Positions 1-6,758 of a stretch of DNA of 32,000 nt are shown here, one piece after another; position 1 is the stretch's first letter; each line of letters opens with the position of its first letter. The stretch lies in NCBI RefSeq assembly GCF_043950625.1, contig NZ_CP171007.1; one strand, 5' to 3'. The notes under the pieces were generated by a model. The model saw nothing but the letters and a program-made list of their open reading frames with translations, was not told where the DNA came from and ran no database searches. This stretch comes from Alkanindiges sp. WGS2144 (GTDB lineage Bacteria > Pseudomonadota > Gammaproteobacteria > Pseudomonadales > Moraxellaceae). The position numbers and the translations under genes were made by a program.

Positions 1-3000
1 TTGCTGTAATAGCGCATGAATGGCCTGCACGGGCATACGCTGTGTGGATACCGCCAGATGAAACTCAAACTCATGAATTTGTGTGGTCAAACCGGCAAGT
101 GTGGCCTCATCCGGTAGTCTGGCATGCAGAATATGGTTAAACCAGTCAACCATTTGCTCCATCTCAACAGGCGCTTGCTTGTAGCGTTCAAGCTGGGCGT
201 AAATGGCAAAGTTCTGAAGCTTTTTTTCAAAAATTCTGGGCCACTGTTCAGGGTAAGCCGGGTTGAGCTGCTCTAAAATATGATGCAGGCAATCCCCTGC
301 ATTGGCTCCGCGAGGAAAGCGAAAACATAGCGGTAAAAGCGCAGGCTCTGCTTCAGTTTGTGCTTGTATTAAGGCAACTGGTATGGCTGCGCCGGATTTA
401 CCGTCATGCTCATCATCGTGCATTAAGGTGTCGGCAGCAGGTACGTCTTCCGGTAAGACAGAAGTCCGCCTTTGGTGGCGTGATAACTGGCTAAAGCTGG
501 TTAATCCCCAGGCATAAACCTGATGATTGGGTAAAGGCCGCGCCTGAATATCAACGCTTGTATCAACTTGCTTATAAAAAAATTGTGGGCATTCACTTAA
601 GCCATCCTGTACGGCCGTATTATCATCGGCCCAGCCATCGCGTGCAGGGGGCAGCCAGTGATATAATGCACCTTTTATTTTACCCTTGTCATCCACAGGT
701 GGCGGCGCAACAACGTATAACCGCACACTGGCGCGGGTTAGGGCCACATAAATCAGGCGGCGCAGTTCGGCCTGTTCACGCTCCTGATGCGCTTGCAGTT
801 GCACTGCATCACGGTCAGAAAATGCCAGCATGCGCTGTTGGTCTTGCTCATAAAAAATAATTTTAGACGGCGACGCACGGTTTGACTTGTCTAGCCCGGC
901 CACAAAAACAATAGGAAACTCCAGTCCCTTGGATTTGTGAATGGTCATCAGTTGCACACCCTGCTCACCCGATAAGCGGCGCTCCAGTTCCCATTCACGC
1001 TGCTGCGGCTGGCTAATTTGCCGCATTAGCCAGGCCAGTAAATGATGCTGACCCTGAATTTTTTCACTTTGCTGGTGAATAATTTCAAGCAAATGGCGTA
1101 AATTGACCACCAACCGCTCCGCATGTGGTTGTCTGGACAATTGCTGCCAGATATCAAAATGCTCACTCAATTGTTGCCATGCAGCCAGAAAACCAGCCTT
1201 ATACCAGCGCTCACCCAGCGTAAAAAACAGGCCCTGCAAACTGGCCAACTCATCAGGGTTTTGATCAAGTTCGATCAGATCACTTAAGGTTTTACCCATC
1301 ATCAGACCAGACAAGGCACGGCGTAAACGACCTTCATGATACGGTGCCAGCATGGTTTGTAATACCGCAACAAGATCTTCTGCCAAAGGACTTTGAAAAA
1401 TACTGACCCGGGAACCACGCCATACCGGCACATTGGCACGCTGCAACGCGGCCTGTACTTTGTCCAGCTGGCTGTTGGAACGGCACAACACCGCAATATG
1501 ATTGGGCGTGATGGTCTCTTGTGTTGAGTTATTTTTAAGAAATACCTGCCCCTGCTGGCTAGTTTTGAGTAGCTGAATAATTTGCCAGGCCACCTGCTCA
1601 AATTCGGTTTTTTGTTCTTCTACACACAGCAGACGCAAGGGGCGATGGTTAATATTTGGCCCGTCATGCAGCTCGGCCGTATTGCGACCACCTGCCTGCA
1701 CCGGTTGGTAATACACATTTTCGCCCAGTTCCAGTGTGAAACTAAACAAACGGTCGACCGCAGCCACCAGCGGCGCAATAGAACGCTGGTTAAATTTTAA
1801 AAAATGCTGCTGACCACCCAGTTGCATTACTTCTGTTTTAGCACGCTGATAGGTCAGCATGTCGCCACCACGGAAGCCATAAATGGCCTGCTTGGGATCA
1901 CCCACCAACACCAGGCATGAGCGAGGATTAAGCAAAGCACTGCTTTGCCCGAGCGAACGAGGAAAAAGCAGAGCATTGCTCTGCCCTGAGGCGCACCGCG
2001 CCGCAAGAAGACGAGAGCTTTGCTCGAGCGGGCGAGGATTCCGCAAGGCATTATCCGGCTTAGCCGCAACAGCTTGCCGCCAGATATGCGCAATTACACA
2101 ATCCTGATCCGCGTTGGTATCCTGAAATTCATCTACCAGTGCCACCGGATAGCGATGCTGAATATGCCGTGCCAGAGTGTGTTGTTCATCCTGTTGCAAC
2201 ACACTGGCTAGTACACGCATTTGCTGGGCAAAGGTGGTCTCGCCGCGCTCGCTTAACAGTCGGGGTAGCTCGCTACGCATATGCTGGCTGAGGAAATAAC
2301 GTAGATGCCGGTCAATTTGCTCAATGGCAGCAATCAGCTGCTCGCGTTGCCGGGCAAGCTGCTGAATAAATGCAACCACAGGGATTTTTAAAAACTGCTG
2401 TAGCGCGTCCTGATCGGCAGGCTTTTTATTAAACATGCTTTCAATCGCCAAAAAGCCTTCGAGCAAGTCAGCATATTTTTTATGTTCATTGAGTTTTAAT
2501 AAATAGCTTAAGTCGTTACTGGCAATGCTATTGAGCATCGGCATCAGCAAAGCACCATGCTTTTTAAAGCATTTTATGCCATTCAGGTTGTTATAATATG
2601 TCCCATCTTCGGCAAAAAAATCATTAAAAGGCGCAAGTAGCTCATCATCAATTTGCTTTAACTGCTGATAAAGTTCATCAAAACTTGCCCAGTCCAGCTG
2701 CGGCATGGGTTCTGGCTGCACTTGCGCTGCCAAAAAATTCAGCACAGTTTCAATACTACCGCGATAATCTTCCACCTCTTTTAACTGGTCGGCCATGACC
2801 AGTAATTCAATCAGGCGGGCGGGCTGCTGGCTGCGCCATTGACGCAGTGCATCATGCATCAACTGGTAGCACAGTTCGGCTTCCTGCTCGGTAATTTGCA
2901 GGATTTCATGCTGGCCGCTATCAAAGGCAAATTCATTTAGCAGTTTTTGGCAAAAGCTGTCCAGTGTGCCAACAAATAACTCATCAAAGCTGTCCAGTGC

Positions 3001-3390
3001 CAGTTGCAGGCGGTTTTTGGCATGGATGAGTTCATCAACATCCAGCTTTTGCACTAAATAAACCGCCAGCCAGTCCTGTTCAGCATGCACGCGGCTTAAG
3101 GTATCCGCCCGGTTTAAGATGGCCTCGTGAAACAGGCTGCGGCACTGCTCAAAGCGGCTACGAATGCGGATTTTTAGCTCAGCTGCCGCTGCACGGGTAA
3201 AGGTAGTGGCAATAATTTGCCGGGTTAGAAATTCACCTTCAACAATTAAACGCACCATTAAGGCAGACAGTGTCCAGGTTTTTCCAGTGCCTGCTGAGGC
3301 TTCAATCAGATGAATACCATTGAGTTGAAGATCAATGGCCGGAATTTCCGGAATCGGCACAGGGGCAAAGGCCTGGACTTGTGTGTTCAT
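1..3390 (-). CDS. recB: Exodeoxyribonuclease V beta subunit RecB (partial; the C-terminal nuclease part continues past the left window edge)
   Basis: Absent from the ORF track because the frame is open to base 1. Reverse translation from ATG (3390..3388) gives MNTQVQAFAPVP...IEASAGTGKTWTLSALMVRL (Walker A). It continues with VDEFQDTN (motif II, 2136..2113), VGDPKQAIYGFRGGD (motif III, 1905..1861), MTIHKSKGLEFPIVFV and RRLIYVALTRA (motifs V/VI, about 960..720). The frame stays open to base 1 (...EFEFHLAVSTQRMPVQAIHALLQQ). The start overlaps the recC stop as ATGA (3387..3390), which suggests translational coupling. Confidence 0.93.
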   Translation of the reverse strand, partial: MNTQVQAFAPVPIPEIPAIDLQLNGIHLIEASAGTGKTWTLSALMVRLIVEGEFLTRQIIATTFTRAAAAELKIRIRSRFEQCRSLFHEAILNRADTLSRVHAEQDWLAVYLVQKLDVDELIHAKNRLQLALDSFDELFVGTLDSFCQKLLNEFAFDSGQHEILQITEQEAELCYQLMHDALRQWRSQQPARLIELLVMADQLKEVEDYRGSIETVLNFLAAQVQPEPMPQLDWASFDELYQQLKQIDDELLAPFNDFFAEDGTYYNNLNGIKCFKKHGALLMPMLNSIASNDLSYLLKLNEHKKYADLLEGFLAIESMFNKKPADQDALQQFLKIPVVAFIQQLARQREQLIAAIEQIDRHLRYFLSQHMRSELPRLLSERGETTFAQQMRVLASVLQQDEQHTLARHIQHRYPVALVDEFQDTNADQDCVIAHIWRQAVAAKPDNALRNPRPLEQSSRLLAARCASGQSNALLFPRSLGQSSALLNPRSCLVLVGDPKQAIYGFRGGDMLTYQRAKTEVMQLGGQQHFLKFNQRSIAPLVAAVDRLFSFTLELGENVYYQPVQAGGRNTAELHDGPNINHRPLRLLCVEEQKTEFEQVAWQIIQLLKTSQQGQVFLKNNSTQETITPNHIAVLCRSNSQLDKVQAALQRANVPVWRGSRVSIFQSPLAEDLVAVLQTMLAPYHEGRLRRALSGLMMGKTLSDLIELDQNPDELASLQGLFFTLGERWYKAGFLAAWQQLSEHFDIWQQLSRQPHAERLVVNLRHLLEIIHQQSEKIQGQHHLLAWLMRQISQPQQREWELERRLSGEQGVQLMTIHKSKGLEFPIVFVAGLDKSNRASPSKIIFYEQDQQRMLAFSDRDAVQLQAHQEREQAELRRLIYVALTRASVRLYVVAPPPVDDKGKIKGALYHWLPPARDGWADDNTAVQDGLSECPQFFYKQVDTSVDIQARPLPNHQVYAWGLTSFSQLSRHQRRTSVLPEDVPAADTLMHDDEHDGKSGAAIPVALIQAQTEAEPALLPLCFRFPRGANAGDCLHHILEQLNPAYPEQWPRIFEKKLQNFAIYAQLERYKQAPVEMEQMVDWFNHILHARLPDEATLAGLTTQIHEFEFHLAVSTQRMPVQAIHALLQQ
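1919..2050 (-). repeat. Intragenic tandem array of degenerate ~36-nt hairpin-forming units, in frame within recB
   Basis: Plus-strand units: GAGCGAGGATTAAGCAAAGCACTGCTTTGCCC (1919..1950), GAGCGAACGAGGAAAAAGCAGAGCATTGCTCTGCCCT (1951..1987), GAGGCGCACCGCGCCGCAAGAAGACGAGAGCTTTGCTC (1988..2025) and GAGCGGGCGAGGATTCCGCAAGGCA (2026..2050). Perfect 8-bp-arm palindromes lie at 1932..1948 (GCAAAGCA-C-TGCTTTGC) and 1968..1984 (GCAGAGCA-T-TGCTCTGC). In the recB frame the array encodes the peptide repeats LGQSSALLNPRS, ASGQSNALLFPRS and PLEQSSRLLAARC. Confidence 0.8.
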
Positions 3391-6300
3391 TGGGCAAGCA
3401 CCTGTGAAAACTGTTTAATGGGCTGATACAGGCCAATAGCGTGCTGTTCCAGAAAGCTTAAAAACAGGCGACCTGAATCCTGCCCACGCAAAATGAGCTG
3501 CCAGTCCCGATGCAAGGCACAGTCCTCCTGCTCATGGGCTGGTAAAAAGCCGTAGCTGCCTTCCAGCCATTGTTTTAACAAACCATCCGGGTTTTTAATA
3601 CTTACGCTGCTGGTTTTAGCATCATAATGAATTCCTGAATTGTGCAACACCAGGTTGGGCGGCAACACCCACGGCTGACAACTGGCCTGCTGCCAGACGT
3701 CCAGCCATTGCAGCAATTGCTCACGGGCCATGCTGGCCTCTACCGGATCATAAATAAGCGTGGTGTCACTGAGCACAATGACCCGCTGCCCTATGCCGTT
3801 TTGCACATCCTGCCCGCTGGTTTTGCGCTGGATTTGCCAGGCCAGATGCTCCAGCCAGTAACGTAGCTGGCGCTGGCCTTTATGCTTGTAGGGATACTGG
3901 CTTAACCATAATGCGCAATGTTCATCCTGTGGCATTTTTGCCAGCAATTGCCACGCGGCTAGCTCAAGCAGATATTCAGATACTGGCGTTTCACCTTCAC
4001 CATAGACTTGCAAACGCTTGCGGTTACGCGCGGCCTCCAGTTGGCTTTTTTTCCAGTAAGCCATAGCCGCACTGCCCACTGGTAATACTGCTTGCAGGTG
4101 ACCATGCGCCAGTTGCTCAGGCTGTTGCTGATGCAGGGCGCGAATATGGTATTCATCCAGCTTGCTTAGGCTGAGCGGCTCAAAAATAGTCGGCAAGTCC
4201 TGCCGTGCAATTGGCTGCACCCGGGTTTCACTTAAAAAATGACTGGCGGGACGACACAACTGGCGAATAATCCGGTCCAGTGACAAGACCTGACGCTCTC
4301 TCTGCTGAGCATTAATCTGTTGCTGAAACTGATGATTAAGCCAGGTAGATACCGGAAATTGCTGCTGTAAATTACTGGCAACATTTGACCAGGTGCCTAT
4401 AAAACTGCGCGGCTGTAGCGCCTGAAAATTATTGGCTTCAAAAGGTTCCAGAGTATGGTAATGCACAATGTGCACCAGTGTAGGCTGCCCCAATGGCTCA
4501 GGTTTGAGCATGGAATCGACAAATTCGATGAGTTCCTGAAGCGTACCGGACGGTTGCCGCGGGTGGCTATCGCCCGCATCAAAGCCATTATAAAACATCC
4601 AGCAGGCGTCCTGCGCCAGTAACAAGCCATCCAGAAAAGCACCCTGCTCATCAATTTGCCGCGAACGATCTCCGCGCTGGGCGGGCATGACCGACATTAA
4701 GTCAAACGTGTTTTTATTGTCTCGCGCCGGAAACAGGCCACTGTCCAGATTGAGCATCACCACCAGCCGATACGGCAAAGGCCGCAAGGTCCCCAGACGG
4801 CTAAAGGTAATTTTTCCGGTGGGTATGGAACCGGGCGGTGCCTGTTCCAGAATTTGCCCTACTTCATCCAGCACAAAACGTAAGGGCAGATTAAGCTGTG
4901 AGCTTTGGGTTAAATCAAGGCTGGCCTGTAATTCATCCAGTGCACAGGAAACGTCCTTGCCTGCCGTGCTATGAATGACATGGGCAAAATCGGTACTCAG
5001 CTCATCACGTAGTAAGTTCAGCCAGTCCTGCAAGTTGTTATGCTGCTGCTTAAACAAATCACGTCGCGCAGCCAGGTCCTGATAGATTCTGGACAAACGG
5101 GCAATCAGCTCAAAATCCTGCCGGCCAACATCCACATAGGGTAAAATATCCGCGTGAATGGCCTGAACCGGCATGGCAATTCCCAGCATCAGGCGGTTTA
5201 GGGCAAACTGCAAGCTAAAGCGGGTGTCGCGGTCATCCTGATGCAGGGTTTGCTGTAAATGCTCCGCATCAAAACCACGCCGGAAACCAGCATCAACCAG
5301 TAACTCGCCCAGCCGCTGCACCTGTTCACGGCTTAGGCAATACAATTCCTGCACGGCTTCCAGCGCCAGCCAGTCCAGCAAATCTTCAATACTAAAACGC
5401 CCATCCAGCAAGGCATAACGGCCAATCATTGCCTGCCATAGCTGCTCGGCATCGGCCTGTGCCACGCCAGTAATATGTACTGGTAAATGCATACCCGACT
5501 GACCGGAAAATACGGTACGAATCAGTGGGGCAATTTCCAGTAAATTGGGCACAAACACCACAATATCGGCAGGCTGGCGACTGGTATCTTCACTGAGCCA
5601 CTGAATCAGCTCTTCACGTAGCACTTCCAGCTGGCGCAGCGGTGAATGACAGGCATGTATCTGAATGGATCGATCCTGCGGCAACAGGCTATGGCTGTGT
5701 TTTTCAGGCTCAACCAGATATAAAATGTCGTTTTGCAATTGCCCCAGCAAGGTGTTGGGAAAATAATCAGGAAACAGGTCAACCCATTGCCCTTCATCAT
5801 TACCGGACAGCTCAACCAGCAAGGCAAAAATATCGCGAGCCTGCTTGCCCAGCCGGGTTAACAGGGGGTGCCTGCTGTCATAAAATGCCGCAGCACGTGG
5901 ATTTTTGAGTTCAAATTGCTTGAGCCACAAGGGGTCAACGCTATCGGCCCAGTATTCCTGCGACGGGTTATAATGTAAAAACTGCACGTCAATATACTGC
6001 GCCAGCTGTTTTAAAAAGTTGAACTCTGATGGTGGTAATTGCAGGACGGTAAAAACAGTCAGGCTTTTGGGCAGTACACGACGCTTGGCTATATTTTTCT
6101 CCAGTATTTGCCAAAATCGTTCGCCAATACCCTGATATTTTATAAAATCCTCACTAAACAGGGTTTGCCACAAAAACTGCTGCCAGATTTCCATCTGGCT
6201 ATAGCGTTCCAGTAGCCATTCAGGTGTCTGTCCATCAAATTTTTTGATTTGCGGCACAATATCCAGCAACTGACCCTTACCCCATTGCCGCAGCCACTCA

Positions 6301-6758
6301 GGCCGATACAGCACATAACTGGCAAATACCTGGGCAATCTGCTCAGCCATTTTCCACAGCAGGCGCTGCTGATGTTTTGCCCGGGTTTGCAATTTTTCCA
6401 ATAAGGGTTTGAGTACTGTGCCTGCCTGCTGGTGTTGCTCAGGTGCTGCCAGTACCGCTAAAAAGTACGAAAACAAACGCCACTGAATCACCTGCCGCGC
6501 AAATGGGGCATTTTTCGGAATGTCATTGCCCAGTACCCGGCGATACAATGTCCACTGGTAGGTGCCAAAAAAATCAGTATTTAAGCGTGCGCTAATGCCC
6601 TGCTGACTGGCCAGTTGATAGCGCAACCACACCCCGACCCCATGTGAAGGCACAATCACCTGCTGCGCCTCCAGCACCCCAATCGGATGCGCTGCAAAGA
6701 AGTCCTGCATGGTAGCAAACAACAGATCAATCCGTTGGCTCTGGGTAATATTAAGCAT
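3387..6758 (-). CDS. recC: Exodeoxyribonuclease V gamma subunit RecC
   Basis: An 1123-aa ORF, the same size class as E. coli RecC (~1120 aa). The N-terminus MLNITQSQRIDLLFATMQDFF...VIVPSHGVGVWLRYQLASQQGISA parallels E. coli MLRVYHSNRLDVL...ILVQSTGMAQWLQMTLSQKFGIAA. It lies immediately upstream of, and overlaps, recB. Confidence 0.93.
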   Translation of the reverse strand: MLNITQSQRIDLLFATMQDFFAAHPIGVLEAQQVIVPSHGVGVWLRYQLASQQGISARLNTDFFGTYQWTLYRRVLGNDIPKNAPFARQVIQWRLFSYFLAVLAAPEQHQQAGTVLKPLLEKLQTRAKHQQRLLWKMAEQIAQVFASYVLYRPEWLRQWGKGQLLDIVPQIKKFDGQTPEWLLERYSQMEIWQQFLWQTLFSEDFIKYQGIGERFWQILEKNIAKRRVLPKSLTVFTVLQLPPSEFNFLKQLAQYIDVQFLHYNPSQEYWADSVDPLWLKQFELKNPRAAAFYDSRHPLLTRLGKQARDIFALLVELSGNDEGQWVDLFPDYFPNTLLGQLQNDILYLVEPEKHSHSLLPQDRSIQIHACHSPLRQLEVLREELIQWLSEDTSRQPADIVVFVPNLLEIAPLIRTVFSGQSGMHLPVHITGVAQADAEQLWQAMIGRYALLDGRFSIEDLLDWLALEAVQELYCLSREQVQRLGELLVDAGFRRGFDAEHLQQTLHQDDRDTRFSLQFALNRLMLGIAMPVQAIHADILPYVDVGRQDFELIARLSRIYQDLAARRDLFKQQHNNLQDWLNLLRDELSTDFAHVIHSTAGKDVSCALDELQASLDLTQSSQLNLPLRFVLDEVGQILEQAPPGSIPTGKITFSRLGTLRPLPYRLVVMLNLDSGLFPARDNKNTFDLMSVMPAQRGDRSRQIDEQGAFLDGLLLAQDACWMFYNGFDAGDSHPRQPSGTLQELIEFVDSMLKPEPLGQPTLVHIVHYHTLEPFEANNFQALQPRSFIGTWSNVASNLQQQFPVSTWLNHQFQQQINAQQRERQVLSLDRIIRQLCRPASHFLSETRVQPIARQDLPTIFEPLSLSKLDEYHIRALHQQQPEQLAHGHLQAVLPVGSAAMAYWKKSQLEAARNRKRLQVYGEGETPVSEYLLELAAWQLLAKMPQDEHCALWLSQYPYKHKGQRQLRYWLEHLAWQIQRKTSGQDVQNGIGQRVIVLSDTTLIYDPVEASMAREQLLQWLDVWQQASCQPWVLPPNLVLHNSGIHYDAKTSSVSIKNPDGLLKQWLEGSYGFLPAHEQEDCALHRDWQLILRGQDSGRLFLSFLEQHAIGLYQPIKQFSQVLAQ

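What the first reader, a model, noticed from the sequence alone, without database searches (positions are those of the whole stretch)
1906..2112. In-frame hairpin-forming tandem repeat (REP/RPE-like) inside recB, between helicase motifs II and III
Between VDEFQDTN (2136..2113) and VGDPKQAIYGFRGGD (1905..1861) this recB carries 69 codons. As I remember it, E. coli RecB has about 23 here (DPQQYRIFRRIWHHQPETALLLI).

The surplus coincides with 3-4 degenerate tandem copies of a ~36-nt unit (1919..2050). Thirty-six nt is 12 codons, so the frame is kept. The result is the peptide repeats LGQSSALLNPRS, ASGQSNALLFPRS and PLEQSSRLLAARC.

The two best-preserved units each hold a perfect palindrome: GCAAAGCA-C-TGCTTTGC and GCAGAGCA-T-TGCTCTGC. 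The A-to-G difference in the left arm is mirrored by T-to-C in the right arm, a compensatory change that preserves the stem. That points to selection or propagation at the nucleic-acid structure level inside an essential repair gene. It is reminiscent of Rickettsia palindromic elements or of REP/MITE-type elements landing in frame.

The segment also looks more GC-rich than its flanks. It creates two spurious ORFs on both strands in the track (1854..2093 and 1883..2107).
Basis: partly seen in the sequence, partly recalled or inferred. Interest (0 to 1): 0.7.

Follow-up and report, generated by a model that had tools for sequence, protein, structure and literature searches.

The report
Mobile hairpin repeats translated inside recB
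The extra 45 codons in this Alkanindiges recB gene are in-frame copies of a small hairpin-forming repeat that is scattered over chromosomes and plasmids of the whole family Moraxellaceae; they sit in a floppy surface loop of the repair enzyme and their number differs even between closely related strains.

Summary
This recB (Alkanindiges sp. WGS2144, minus strand 3390..<1) has 69 codons between helicase motifs II and III. E. coli has 23 and most Moraxellaceae 24.

The surplus (1918..2058) is not a simple 36-nt tandem repeat. It consists of a decayed remnant, one complete 75-nt three-hairpin element and one 36-nt second-hairpin module.

These belong to a dispersed repeat of about 60 nt that I found in Psychrobacter, Acinetobacter, Moraxella, Aquirhabdus and Alkanindiges chromosomes and on Moraxella and Psychrobacter plasmids. 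A covariance model built only from non-recB copies hits the recB inserts (E 1e-17 to 2e-9). Its stems covary strongly.

The canonical element is 60 nt (20 codons) and open in all three sense frames. The insert occurs only in three Alkanindiges lineages and is absent from A. hydrocarboniclasticus. It is length-polymorphic within ≥90%-identity clusters (39 to 97 aa) and is the only low-confidence internal segment of an otherwise confident RecB model.

Best reading: a tolerated, translated, REP/RPE-like insertion that keeps changing by unit gain and loss. REPs inside recB are already reported for Xanthomonas. The repeat family appears undescribed and its mobilising enzyme is unknown.

The parts
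1..3390 (-). recB coding sequence (first 1130 codons; runs off the left end of the window). Host gene of the insert.
   Evidence: Translation. 100% identical to P0001, 1260 aa, 'UvrD-helicase domain-containing protein [Alkanindiges sp. WGS2144]'. Best solved-structure matches are E. coli RecB chains. The start ATG overlaps the recC stop (recC ORF 3387..6758).
2113..2136 (-). Helicase motif II codons VDEFQDTN, the left anchor of the variable spacer
   Evidence: invariant in 55 RecB homologues
1861..1905 (-). Helicase motif III codons VGDPKQAIYGFRGGD, the right anchor
1918..2058 (-). Whole repeat-derived insert, 141 nt = 47 codons (PDNALRNPRP LEQSSRLLAARC ASGQSNALLFPRS LGQSSALLNPRS); RecB residues 445-491
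   Evidence: By the measure (which includes the Val before GDPKQ) the spacer is 70 aa here against 25 aa in insert-free relatives. Covariance-model hit 1915-1987(-), 53.8 bits, E = 3.7e-14 with filters off. pLDDT is below 50 for residues 446-487.
2029..2058 (-). Unit A: decayed remnant. Its 3' 21 nt (GCCTTGCGGAATCCTCGCCCG) still resemble the tail of the second-hairpin module.
   Evidence: 63% identity to unit D. nhmmer hit 2059-2031, E = 0.0028. Resembles the EPDNVLL units of locus L003.
1954..2028 (-). Units B+C: one complete 75-nt (25-codon) three-hairpin copy. Hairpin 1 is GAGC-AAA-GCTC at 2015-2025, the middle hairpin GGCGC-GGT-GCGCC at 1990-2002, and the hairpin 2 core GCAGAGCA-A-TGCTCTGC at 1968-1984.
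   Evidence: 59 of 79 aligned columns identical to an intergenic copy in Acinetobacter lwoffii (L089); the differences are concentrated in the middle hairpin, which is a palindrome in both (GGAATA/TATTCC versus GGCGC/GCGCC). RNA fold z = -2.4.
1918..1953 (-). Unit D: second-hairpin module only (36 nt, LGQSSALLNPRS); core palindrome GCAAAGCA-G-TGCTTTGC at 1932-1948. It abuts the Cys codon of CLVLVGDPKQ.
   Evidence: 35 of 36 identical to the family consensus. Model hit 1915-1960(-), 40.3 bits, E = 2e-9.

Best explanation
The surplus between helicase motifs II and III of recB is a cluster of copies of a small, structured repeat that is dispersed through Moraxellaceae genomes and plasmids.

The canonical element is about 60 nt and has two hairpins in the same orientation:
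- hairpin 1: xxGC-AYA-GCxx, with a freely covarying stem;
- linker: CTTGCG;
- hairpin 2: an almost invariant apical stem-loop GCAAAGCA-G-TGCTTTGC on a covarying basal stem, ending ...TCC-NNN-CTCA.

A sub-family carries a third small hairpin between them and is 75 nt long.

Proposed sequence of events:
1. A copy entered the recB segment that encodes a surface loop, in the orientation in which the element has no stop codon in any frame. Being 60 or 75 nt long, it kept the reading frame.
2. The loop is disordered and lies outside the conserved helicase core, so RecB tolerates it. Selection filters only for frame and for absence of stops. The peptide (LEHSSRLALGQSSALLYPRS-like) is a passenger.
3. 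The array then kept changing in whole units. This happened by in-register slippage or unequal recombination between the repeated modules, and possibly by further insertion beside resident copies, as in the intergenic head-to-tail arrays. The result is different arrays in each Alkanindiges lineage and strain.

Shown here: homology to the dispersed family, the hairpin covariation, lineage restriction, in-frame status, length polymorphism, and the predicted disordered loop.

Inferred: insertion by transposition, neutrality for RecBCD, and the relative contribution of slippage versus new insertion. The enzyme that moves the element is unknown.
For: Family and homology
My own arithmetic for a uniform 596-Gb collection predicts about 17 chance hits. 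The hits are mostly Psychrobacter, Acinetobacter, Moraxella, Enhydrobacter, Aquirhabdus and Alkanindiges illinoisensis.
- 102 of the 136 matches carry the conserved TTGCG-like flank.
- Model R1, built from 23 non-recB copies, hits the recB spacers: L002 full length at 67.6 bits (E = 1.4e-17), L001 49.3, L004 45.8, L006 42.1, window 40.3 bits (E = 2e-9), or 53.8 bits with filters off.
- Nothing else in the window or in the flanks of eight recB loci reaches E < 0.01.

Structure
- On 105 distinct copies, 20 of 21 pairs show changes on both sides. 82.9% of cells are paired against 71.3 ± 0.5 in shuffles and 30-58% when the partner is slid by 1-3 columns (for the hand-made alignment).
- Within recB alone (15 units from 6 alleles), 86.7% are paired against 75.9 ± 2.0, with 21 double-change cells against 8.1 ± 3.3.

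Lineage restriction and dynamics
- By the measure (which includes the Val before GDPKQ) the spacer is 25 aa in Acinetobacter and most relatives and 70-89 aa in P0001-P0006.
- Gene order is the same in all loci.
- Within ≥90%-identity clusters the spacer is 39, 63, 83 or 97 aa in one cluster and 77, 89 or 97 aa in the A. illinoisensis cluster. It is 25 aa in all 11 A. hydrocarboniclasticus-cluster members.
- P0149 and P0150 differ by exactly one 20-aa canonical element at the right junction. P0138 is consistent with an in-register unit deletion.
- The same behaviour occurs between genes: 1, 2, 3, at least 4, or 5 head-to-tail copies at one A. lwoffii locus.

Tolerance
- AlphaFold2 model of residues 1-630: mean pLDDT 86.6. 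The only internal stretch below 50 is 446-487, between helix 427-436 and strand 492-497. Its best structural matches are RecB chains.
- All helicase motifs are intact.

Independent assemblies
- Arrays are seen in NCBI isolate genomes and several SRA-derived assemblies.
Against: - No copy of the element other than the recB one lies in the 32-kb window. I could not scan the rest of this genome, so dispersed copies are shown for A. illinoisensis (L018, L024, L026) but not for WGS2144 itself.
- No transposase was linked to the element. Clustering the ORFs within 8 kb of 119 copies gave only IS3 and IS630 transposases, which look like targets rather than drivers.
- No empty/filled site pair outside recB was available, so the insertion mechanism, target and any target duplication are unknown.
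- The insert-free A. hydrocarboniclasticus allele is nested within the insert-bearing clade: 85% nucleotide identity to A. illinoisensis against about 70% for the other lineages. It keeps an ancestral-looking KEVKN. One gain plus one loss therefore needs a clean replacement, or there were several independent gains at one codon boundary. I saw no recombination tract.
- Neutrality for RecBCD was not tested.
Confidence: 0.8

Rival explanations
1. Exapted loop. The array is kept because the extra, variable peptide loop on RecB domain 1A changes RecBCD behaviour, for example processivity, partner binding, or sensitivity to phage-encoded RecBCD inhibitors. Its strain-to-strain variation would then be a contingency-type polymorphism.
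For: The array has persisted in frame in three lineages that are only about 70% identical in recB. It never carries a stop in about 20 alleles. Di Nocera et al. 2013 (PMC3733652) argue that REP insertions in UvrABCD, RecBCD and polymerase genes are unlikely to be fortuitous and are often the only REP-tagged genes in a species. The exhaustive search found no other protein family with a similar array.
Against: The peptide is predicted disordered. Its sequence changes freely, and changes on the two arms of the stem go together (S to D with A to V), which points to the nucleic acid rather than the peptide. One lineage, A. hydrocarboniclasticus, does without it in all 11 members. In-frame status is explained by purifying selection on recB alone.
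Confidence: 0.1
2. RNA- or DNA-level function inside the operon. The hairpins act within the recC-recB-recD transcript, or in single-stranded DNA, as REPs do elsewhere. They might pause ribosomes, block or attract RNases, or bind a hairpin-specific protein, and so tune RecB/RecD dosage.
For: The apical stem-loop GCAAAGCA-G-TGCTTTGC is above 90% conserved across genera while the basal stem covaries, which suggests sequence-specific recognition. Stems are still 86.7% paired inside recB. Most dispersed copies lie just beyond gene ends, as with REPs, which are thought to act on transcripts (PMC3733652).
Against: The older units in the arrays are visibly decaying: unit A of the window, and mismatched stems in L003 and L002_b. 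Unit number varies freely. Folding energies are ordinary. There are no expression data.
Confidence: 0.12
3. Purely local origin. A 36-nt piece of the recB loop was duplicated by replication slippage. The palindromes are incidental, and the resemblance to elements elsewhere is chance or derives from recB.
For: Units are in tandem and in frame. In-register unit deletions and duplications clearly occur.
Against: A model trained only on non-recB copies from other genera matches the L002 recB copy over all 66 positions, including hairpin 1 and the linker, at 67.6 bits. Unit D is 35 of 36 identical to the family consensus although recB itself is about 70% identical between lineages. The genera that hold most dispersed copies have insert-free recB.
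Confidence: 0.02
4. Assembly or sequencing artefact in a repeat-rich segment.
For: Short-read assemblers can miscount tandem units, so the exact unit number in any one assembly could be wrong.
Against: Arrays occupy the same codon position in independent isolate genomes and in metagenome assemblies from different runs. Identical alleles were recovered from separate samples: L004 and L005, and five 83-aa-spacer members of the P0002 cluster. All are in frame.
Confidence: 0.01

Closest known systems
REP elements inside DNA-repair genes, including recB of Xanthomonas campestris and X. oryzae (Di Nocera et al. 2013, BMC Genomics 14:522; PMC3733652)
   Same: Short palindromic dispersed repeats that are mostly extragenic but occasionally lie in frame inside genes, notably uvrA-D, recBCD and polymerase genes. 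Single units, dimers or clusters encode 20-82 residues. Such genes are sometimes the only REP-tagged genes in a species.
   Different: A different repeat family and host clade. The site also differs: X. oryzae PXO_03906 carries its REPs at residues 84-126, whereas here they are at residues 445-491 between motifs II and III. The Moraxellaceae element lacks the GTAG or CGTC tag (2 and 24 of 105 copies) and combines two or three unlike hairpins in one orientation.
Rickettsia palindromic elements (RPE), as summarised in PMC3733652 (its references 13 and 14)
   Same: Palindromic mobile repeats found inserted in frame in genes likely encoding functional proteins (PMC3733652). That the added peptide segments are tolerated and lie on the protein surface is from my own knowledge of the RPE literature.
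   Different: RPEs are longer (about 100-150 bp, from my own knowledge) and occur in many genes of obligate intracellular alphaproteobacteria. Here the only cellular gene found to carry in-frame copies is recB. No sequence comparison with RPEs was possible with these tools.
REP/BIME and REPIN-RAYT systems of enterobacteria and pseudomonads
   Same: High-copy hairpin repeats at gene ends, with a conserved sequence plus a covarying stem, clustered in arrays. They are presumed to be recognised as single-stranded hairpins by a dedicated enzyme.
   Different: REPINs are inverted doublets mobilised by a single-copy RAYT gene flanked by REPs. Here the clear arrays are head-to-tail, although some inverted neighbours occur in Psychrobacter. 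No RAYT-like gene was seen near 119 copies.
Coding minisatellites (VNTRs) in bacterial genes
   Same: The array changes by whole in-frame units between close strains: 39, 63, 83 and 97 aa within one ≥90%-identity cluster.
   Different: The units are not native protein repeats. They are copies of a genome-wide non-coding element.

Membership tests
Moraxellaceae ~60-nt double-hairpin repeat (family defined here, model R1) | Significant full-length match to a covariance model built from dispersed, non-recB copies | tested here: met
   Window 1915-1987(-): 53.8 bits, E = 3.7e-14 with filters off. Orthologous recB arrays: 42-68 bits.
Moraxellaceae ~60-nt double-hairpin repeat (family defined here, model R1) | Conserved apical palindrome GCAAAGCA-N-TGCTTTGC (or a co-varied form) followed by ...TCC-NNN-CTCA | tested here: met
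   Unit D is 35 of 36 identical to the consensus module. Unit C carries the GCAGAGCA/TGCTCTGC form that is also seen in dispersed copies.
REP elements in the broad sense (short, dispersed, mostly extragenic palindromes) | Short imperfect palindrome, many dispersed copies, mostly between genes and near gene ends | tested here: met
   At least 119 stretches in the genome scan, with several copies per 8 kb in some loci. 98 of 136 copies are not spanned by any open frame of 150 aa or more. The A. illinoisensis copies are intergenic. Copy number per genome was not measured.
GTAG- or CGTC-tagged REP super-families (Di Nocera et al. 2013) | GTAG or CGTC tetranucleotide at one end of the palindrome | tested here: not met
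   GTAG occurs anywhere in 2 of 105 distinct copies. CGTC occurs before the TTGCG linker in 24 of 105, where it is part of the covarying 3' arm of hairpin 1.
REPIN/RAYT system | Inverted REP doublets as the mobile unit | tested here: inconclusive
   The clear arrays are direct, with 58-60-nt periods. A few closely spaced inverted pairs with a weaker partner occur in Psychrobacter loci L055, L057, L059, L060 and L105.
REPIN/RAYT system | A cognate Y1 (HUH) transposase gene flanked by the repeats | not tested
   Whole genomes could not be scanned. Clustering the ORFs within 8 kb of 119 copies gave only IS3 and IS630 transposases as recurrent neighbours, and only the eight largest or closest of the top 25 clusters were inspected by eye, with no domain scan.
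MITE (miniature inverted-repeat transposable element) | Terminal inverted repeats and a target-site duplication | tested here: not met
   The left end (A)CTCGAGC and the right end CCTCGCTCA are not inverted repeats of each other. A target duplication could not be assessed for lack of empty sites.
Rickettsia palindromic elements (RPE) | Sequence membership in an RPE family | not testable with these tools
   No RPE sequences or models were on hand, and Rfam holds no matching family. The resemblance is functional only (in-frame palindromic insert).
RecB (SF1 helicase-nuclease subunit of RecBCD): the host gene | Helicase motifs, RecB fold and recC-recB-recD gene order | tested here: met
   Motifs are invariant. 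Pfam UvrD-helicase, UvrD_C and PDDEXK_1 are recorded for P0001. Foldseek best hits are E. coli RecB chains at E about 1e-20. recC lies immediately upstream, and recD follows in the syntenic loci.

The most novel reading that the evidence does not exclude
The element is a new class of structure-specific mobile DNA in Moraxellaceae: not GTAG/CGTC-tagged, without terminal inverted repeats, and made of two or three unlike hairpins. It would insert next to its own 3' end, at a ...CA|TG-like junction, and so build head-to-tail arrays. Its accretion inside recB would have produced a hypervariable, translated loop that alters RecBCD, for example its interplay with phage inhibitors or its recombination rate, making recB a contingency locus.
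Probability: 0.08. Interest if true: 0.8.

Novelty: new member of a known kind. Interest (0 to 1): 0.5.

Why it matters
It adds a clear, well-controlled case to the unexplained observation that small palindromic repeats, when they do sit inside genes, tend to sit inside replication and repair genes such as recBCD. This case has extra features: presence/absence among sister species, unit-number polymorphism among close strains, and a source family that can be modelled.

It also brings to light a structured repeat family shared by Psychrobacter, Acinetobacter, Moraxella, Aquirhabdus and Alkanindiges chromosomes and plasmids. I could not find it in Rfam or in the literature I searched. Its apical hairpin is nearly invariant across genera, which implies a conserved, still unidentified binding or mobilising protein.

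Practical consequences:
- the family creates spurious ORFs and gene-length differences in annotations;
- the recB array is a ready strain-typing marker for Alkanindiges.

Tried and rejected
- **Tandem Repeats Finder:** found no array in 1906-2112 even at score 30. The repeat is too degenerate and of mixed period.
- **Rfam:** scans of eight copy-bearing loci and of window 1700-2300 found no family on the element.
- **Literature:** full-text search for the core sequence gave 0 papers. Three keyword searches for a Moraxellaceae repeat family found nothing specific. MITEAba12 surfaced in two searches. From my own recall it is a 113-bp element with terminal inverted repeats, hence a different thing; I did not read that paper here.
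- **Thermodynamics:** z-scores for the whole insert are ordinary. The global fold pairs the two similar palindromes with each other, so I dropped energy as an argument.
- **Protein-index search with the five open-frame peptides:** only 18 candidates, which did not even include the Alkanindiges RecBs, so the index is too sparse for 20-aa motifs. It did reveal IS630 transposases with an in-frame copy.
- **Exhaustive phmmer of the 47-aa insert against 1.84 billion representatives:** one hit, a spurious satellite-like ORF.
- **Metagenome scan for a recB-specific degenerate pattern:** 0 hits, although L007, from a JGI metagenome, matches the pattern. I did not use the second scan.
- **Recombination in the insert-free allele:** L007's flanks are no more diverged from L004 than the rest of the gene is, so loss versus independent gain stays open.
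- **Other in-frame cellular hosts:** the apparent cases L062 (upstream of a LysR-type gene start) and L009 (spurious ORF) did not hold.
- **CRISPR array for the 58-nt periodic arrays:** considered and rejected. The whole period is repeated and there are no unique spacers.
- **IS200/IS605-type mini-element:** considered because there are two sub-terminal hairpins that share AGC-ANN-GCT. Left as speculation; no Y1 transposase was seen.
Full report
**1. What is in the window**

On the minus strand an ORF starts at 3390 and runs off the left end. Its ATG overlaps the stop of the upstream 1123-aa recC ORF, 3387..6758. The 1130 codons in the window are 100% identical to a 1260-aa protein of Alkanindiges sp. 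WGS2144 (Moraxellaceae) with UvrD-helicase and PDDEXK domains. The best solved-structure matches are E. coli RecB chains.

Motif II (VDEFQDTN) is at 2136..2113 and motif III (VGDPKQAIYGFRGGD) at 1905..1861, with 69 codons between them.

The two perfect 8-1-8 palindromes are at 1932-1948 and 1968-1984. They are the only matches to the degenerate pattern in 32 kb (0.19 expected). The insert is 58.9% G+C against 49.0% for the rest of recB.

**2. The insert is lineage-specific and unstable**

I measured the stretch after DEFQDTx up to GDPKQ in 120 RecB homologues. This measure includes the Val before GDPKQ. The results were:
- 25 aa in Acinetobacter and most other Moraxellaceae;
- 32-41 aa of unrelated sequence in some groups;
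- 70-89 aa, built of LGQSSALLNPRS-like units, only in the six closest relatives.

All eight loci I fetched have the same gene order: ABC transporter, recC, recB, recD, hemerythrin.

Outside the spacer the recB genes form three insert-bearing lineages that are about 70% identical to each other: the window, L002/L003, and the A. illinoisensis group L001/L004/L006. The insert-free allele L007 belongs to the A. hydrocarboniclasticus cluster and is 85% identical to the A. illinoisensis group. The insert-free outgroup L008 is about 65% identical to all the others.

Within clusters of at least 90% protein identity the spacer still varies:
- 39, 63, 83 and 97 aa in the P0002 cluster;
- 77, 89 and 97 aa in the A. 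illinoisensis cluster, with 85 aa in the separately clustered A. illinoisensis allele P0005;
- 25 aa in all 11 members of the A. hydrocarboniclasticus cluster.

Three allele comparisons show how the changes arise:
- P0138 (39 aa) reads ...SLRQ|SNALLSPRS. It is consistent with an in-register deletion between two units.
- P0149 and P0150 differ by exactly one 20-aa block, LEHSSRLALGQGNALVSPRS, at the right junction.
- P0134 has the 25-aa form LEHSSRLLAAQHASGQSNALLSPRS where P0002 has the 20-aa form.

Every allele is in frame.

**3. The units belong to a dispersed family**

Nothing in the 172 kb of recB neighbourhoods resembled the units outside the spacer.

My own arithmetic for a uniform 596-Gb collection gives about 17 chance matches. 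The hits are mostly Psychrobacter, Acinetobacter (lwoffii, parvus, kookii, stercoris), Moraxella (atlantae, osloensis), Enhydrobacter, Aquirhabdus and Alkanindiges illinoisensis. About twenty hits in unrelated phyla lack the flanks, which fits the chance expectation.

In the Moraxellaceae hits the flanks are conserved and define an element of about 60 nt:

(A)CTCGAGCAYAGCTCTCGTCTTGCGCTC-GGGCAAAGCAGTGCTTTGCT-TATCCTCGCTCA

A BLAST of the consensus against 72,556 plasmids found 31 records, all Moraxella (28) or Psychrobacter (3). None annotates it as a repeat. Rfam has no matching family. The core sequence occurs in no paper of the searched library.

**4. Structure of the element**

The element has the following parts:
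- **Hairpin 1:** xxGC-AYA-GCxx. Its stem differs from copy to copy while staying complementary (GAGC/GCTC, AGGC/GCCT, GGGC/GCCC, AAGC/GCTT, AGAAAATC/GATTTTCT).
- **Linker:** CTTGCG.
- **Hairpin 2:** a nearly invariant apical stem-loop on a basal stem that covaries (AACGG/CCGTT, ACTGG/CCAGT, CAAGG/CCTTG, AGCGG/CCGCT, AAGGGG/CCCCTT).

| Alignment | Cells paired | Shuffle control | Double changes |
|---|---|---|---|
| 23 copies, aligned by hand-independent MAFFT | 84.1% | 74.1 ± 1.0% | 11 of 21 pairs |
| 105 distinct copies, aligned to the model | 82.9% | 71.3 ± 0.5% | 20 of 21 pairs; 251 cells against 81.6 ± 7.7 |

In the 23-copy alignment, sliding the partner by 1-3 columns drops pairing to 29-55%. 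The 105-copy alignment is fitted to the model, so it leans towards the structure.

Both hairpins share an AGC-ANN-GCT centre. Neither GTAG (2 of 105 copies) nor CGTC (24 of 105) is a constant tag, and the two ends are not inverted repeats of each other.

A sub-family in A. lwoffii and A. kookii (L087, L089, L090) carries a third small palindrome between the two hairpins: CTTCTTGCGG-AATATATT-CCTCA-GGGCAGAGC....

**5. The recB insert read with that knowledge**

Covariance model R1 was built only from dispersed copies outside recB. It matches the recB spacers as follows:

| Locus | Score | Note |
|---|---|---|
| L002 | 67.6 bits, E = 1.4e-17 | all 66 model positions |
| L001 | 49.3 bits | 33-nt insertion in the apical part |
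| L004 | 45.8 bits | |
| L006 | 42.1 bits | |
| window 1915-1960(-) | 40.3 bits, E = 2e-9 | 53.8 bits over 1915-1987 with filters off |

In the window the array has three parts:
- **Unit A, 2029-2058:** a decayed remnant.
- **Units B+C, 1954-2028:** one complete 75-nt three-hairpin copy. It is 59 of 79 aligned columns identical to the A. lwoffii copy, and its middle hairpin is GGCGC-GGT-GCGCC instead of GGAATA-TATTCC.
- **Unit D, 1918-1953:** a second-hairpin module, 35 of 36 identical to the family consensus.

The element lies in the same orientation in all alleles. The right-most copy always abuts the Cys codon of CLVLVGDPKQ (...CTCA|TGY). In the window, L002, L003 and L004 it is also the best-preserved copy; in L001 and L006 the right-most copy is the variant with the long apical insertion.

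The canonical element is 60 nt, or 20 codons, and has no stop in any of its three sense frames. In the recB frame it reads LEHSSRLALGQSSALLYPRS.

**6. The compensatory-change argument**

On 15 second-hairpin units from six recB alleles, the 7-bp core is paired in 86.7% of cells against 75.9 ± 2.0% in shuffles. There are 21 double-change cells against 8.1 ± 3.3, and 4 of 7 pairs switch between A-T and G-C.

Some switches change the protein on both arms. For example, caa-agc...gct-ttg (QS..AL) becomes caa-gac...gtc-tta (QD..VL). The nucleic acid, not the peptide, carries the pattern.

This does not prove selection inside recB. The dispersed family itself contains the same stem variants, so recB may have received different sub-family members. 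Older units also show uncompensated decay.

**7. Where it sits in the protein**

I modelled residues 1-630 with AlphaFold2 using 55 homologues. Mean pLDDT is 86.6. The only internal stretch below 50 is 446-487, which is the insert. It lies between helix 427-436, which follows motif II, and strand 492-497, which leads into motif III. The model's best structural matches are RecB chains. The insert is therefore predicted to be a disordered loop that leaves the helicase core intact.

**8. How the family behaves elsewhere**

- **Mostly between genes.** 98 of 136 copies are not spanned by any open frame of 150 aa or more. The A. illinoisensis copies lie between genes, next to tRNA genes or just beyond a stop codon.
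- **Variable arrays.** At one A. lwoffii locus the element follows a CysG-like gene (identified by eye from its sequence; no domain scan was run) and supplies its last residues and its TAA stop. It is present as 1, 2, 3, at least 4, or 5 head-to-tail copies of 58 nt in different strains.
- **Inside insertion sequences.** In IS630-type transposases the ORF reads through the copy (...VIVMD-MSEDKAKHCFARAQDESCARV-...). In IS3-type transposases the copy sits just before the (C/W)(Y/W)DNA motif in two different IS3 lineages.
- **Rare in cellular genes.** No other cellular gene with an in-frame copy turned up. An exhaustive search of 1.84 billion representative proteins with the 47-aa insert found only a spurious repeat ORF.

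**9. Comparison with what is known**

Di Nocera et al. 2013 (PMC3733652) catalogued GTAG- and CGTC-tagged REPs. They reported that intragenic copies often lie in replication and repair genes, including recBCD. They found REPs at about the same site in the recB genes of X. campestris and X. oryzae, and clusters encoding 43-82 residues. X. oryzae PXO_03906 carries its insert at residues 84-126, which is a different site from the one here. The same paper recalls the in-frame Rickettsia palindromic elements.

The present case is thus a further example of a known phenomenon, with a different and apparently undescribed repeat family. It fails the tag test for the GTAG/CGTC super-families and the inverted-repeat test for MITEs. 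Its relation to REPIN/RAYT systems is open.

**10. What remains open**

- **Mobilising enzyme and target.** Among ORFs within 8 kb of 119 copies, only IS3 and IS630 transposases recur.
- **Other copies in this genome.** I could not tell whether strain WGS2144 has copies outside recB; none lies in the window.
- **One gain or several.** One gain plus a loss in A. hydrocarboniclasticus is supported by the shared 75-nt sub-family copy in all three insert-bearing lineages. Several gains at one codon boundary is supported by the ancestral-looking KEVKN in the insert-free allele. I saw no recombination tract.
- **Effect on RecBCD.** Untested.

Noticed in passing
L085 3606-4143(-), L031, L118; proteins P0122-P0130: IS630-family (DDE_3) transposase genes in several Psychrobacter genomes carry one copy of the same element in frame, in antisense orientation (...KTKCVIVMD-MSEDKAKHCFARAQDESCARV-TRFHK...). 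The ORF continues into the normal C-terminal part, so the transposase may still be made with a 21-aa insert.
   Followed up: partly
L016 1332-1397, L052, L078, L111 (Psychrobacter); L037, L054, L100, L104 (Moraxella osloensis / Enhydrobacter): Two different IS3-family transposases carry the element at the equivalent position, just before the (C/W)(Y/W)DNA motif (...RRGN[P]-element-WDNAPTERFF and ...SRKG-element-CYDNA). The L016 copy is 61 nt by my count and would break the frame. Either this is a hot spot or the IS spread after being hit.
   Followed up: partly
L025, L028, L094 (1 copy); L074, L077, L092, L095, L123 (2); L015 (3); L041 (at least 4); L063 (5): At one orthologous A. lwoffii-group locus, downstream of a CysG-like gene (identified by eye, no domain scan), the 58-nt element forms head-to-tail arrays whose copy number differs between strains. 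The first copy supplies the gene's last codons (...WHERG) and its TAA stop.
   Followed up: partly
L054 (labelled Streptomyces cinereus JCM 3040) and L011 (labelled Lentimicrobiaceae MAG): These contigs carry full elements whose flanks are near-identical to Enhydrobacter/M. osloensis loci (L037, L100, L104) and to an Acinetobacter parvus locus (L035, L116). They are probably contaminant or mis-binned Moraxellaceae contigs.
   Followed up: no
L001 recB (P0005), alignment A1 columns about 1001-1027: The A. illinoisensis GCA_000619845 RecB has a second, unrelated in-frame tandem repeat, roughly five copies of KDGKI, in another loop where relatives have one or two copies.
   Followed up: no
Alignment A1 columns about 1100-1230 (the RecB linker between helicase and nuclease domains; in the window roughly 300-500, minus strand): The linker before the nuclease domain differs by up to about 100 residues among Alkanindiges alleles and shows no recognisable repeat. 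This accounts for most of the length differences between these RecB proteins outside the motif II-III spacer.
   Followed up: no
window 3387-3390: The recC stop and the recB start overlap as ATGA on the minus strand, the usual sign of translational coupling.
   Followed up: no
L055, L057, L059, L060, L105 (Psychrobacter): Some loci hold closely spaced pairs of copies in opposite orientation, with one strong and one weak model hit 10-50 nt apart. The arrangement resembles REPIN-type doublets and contrasts with the head-to-tail arrays in Acinetobacter.
   Followed up: no
Metagenome-contig scan: A degenerate recB pattern that L007 (JGI metagenome 3300079843) matches exactly returned no hit. Either that sample is not in the scanned collection or heavily degenerate patterns are not fully searched.
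   Followed up: no
L026 4825-4890 and ORF 4887..5483: In A. illinoisensis the terminal CTCATG of one copy coincides with the ATG of the next ORF. In many copies the element is followed by TG. Whether the element prefers a ...CA|TG target or merely creates start codons is unknown.
   Followed up: no
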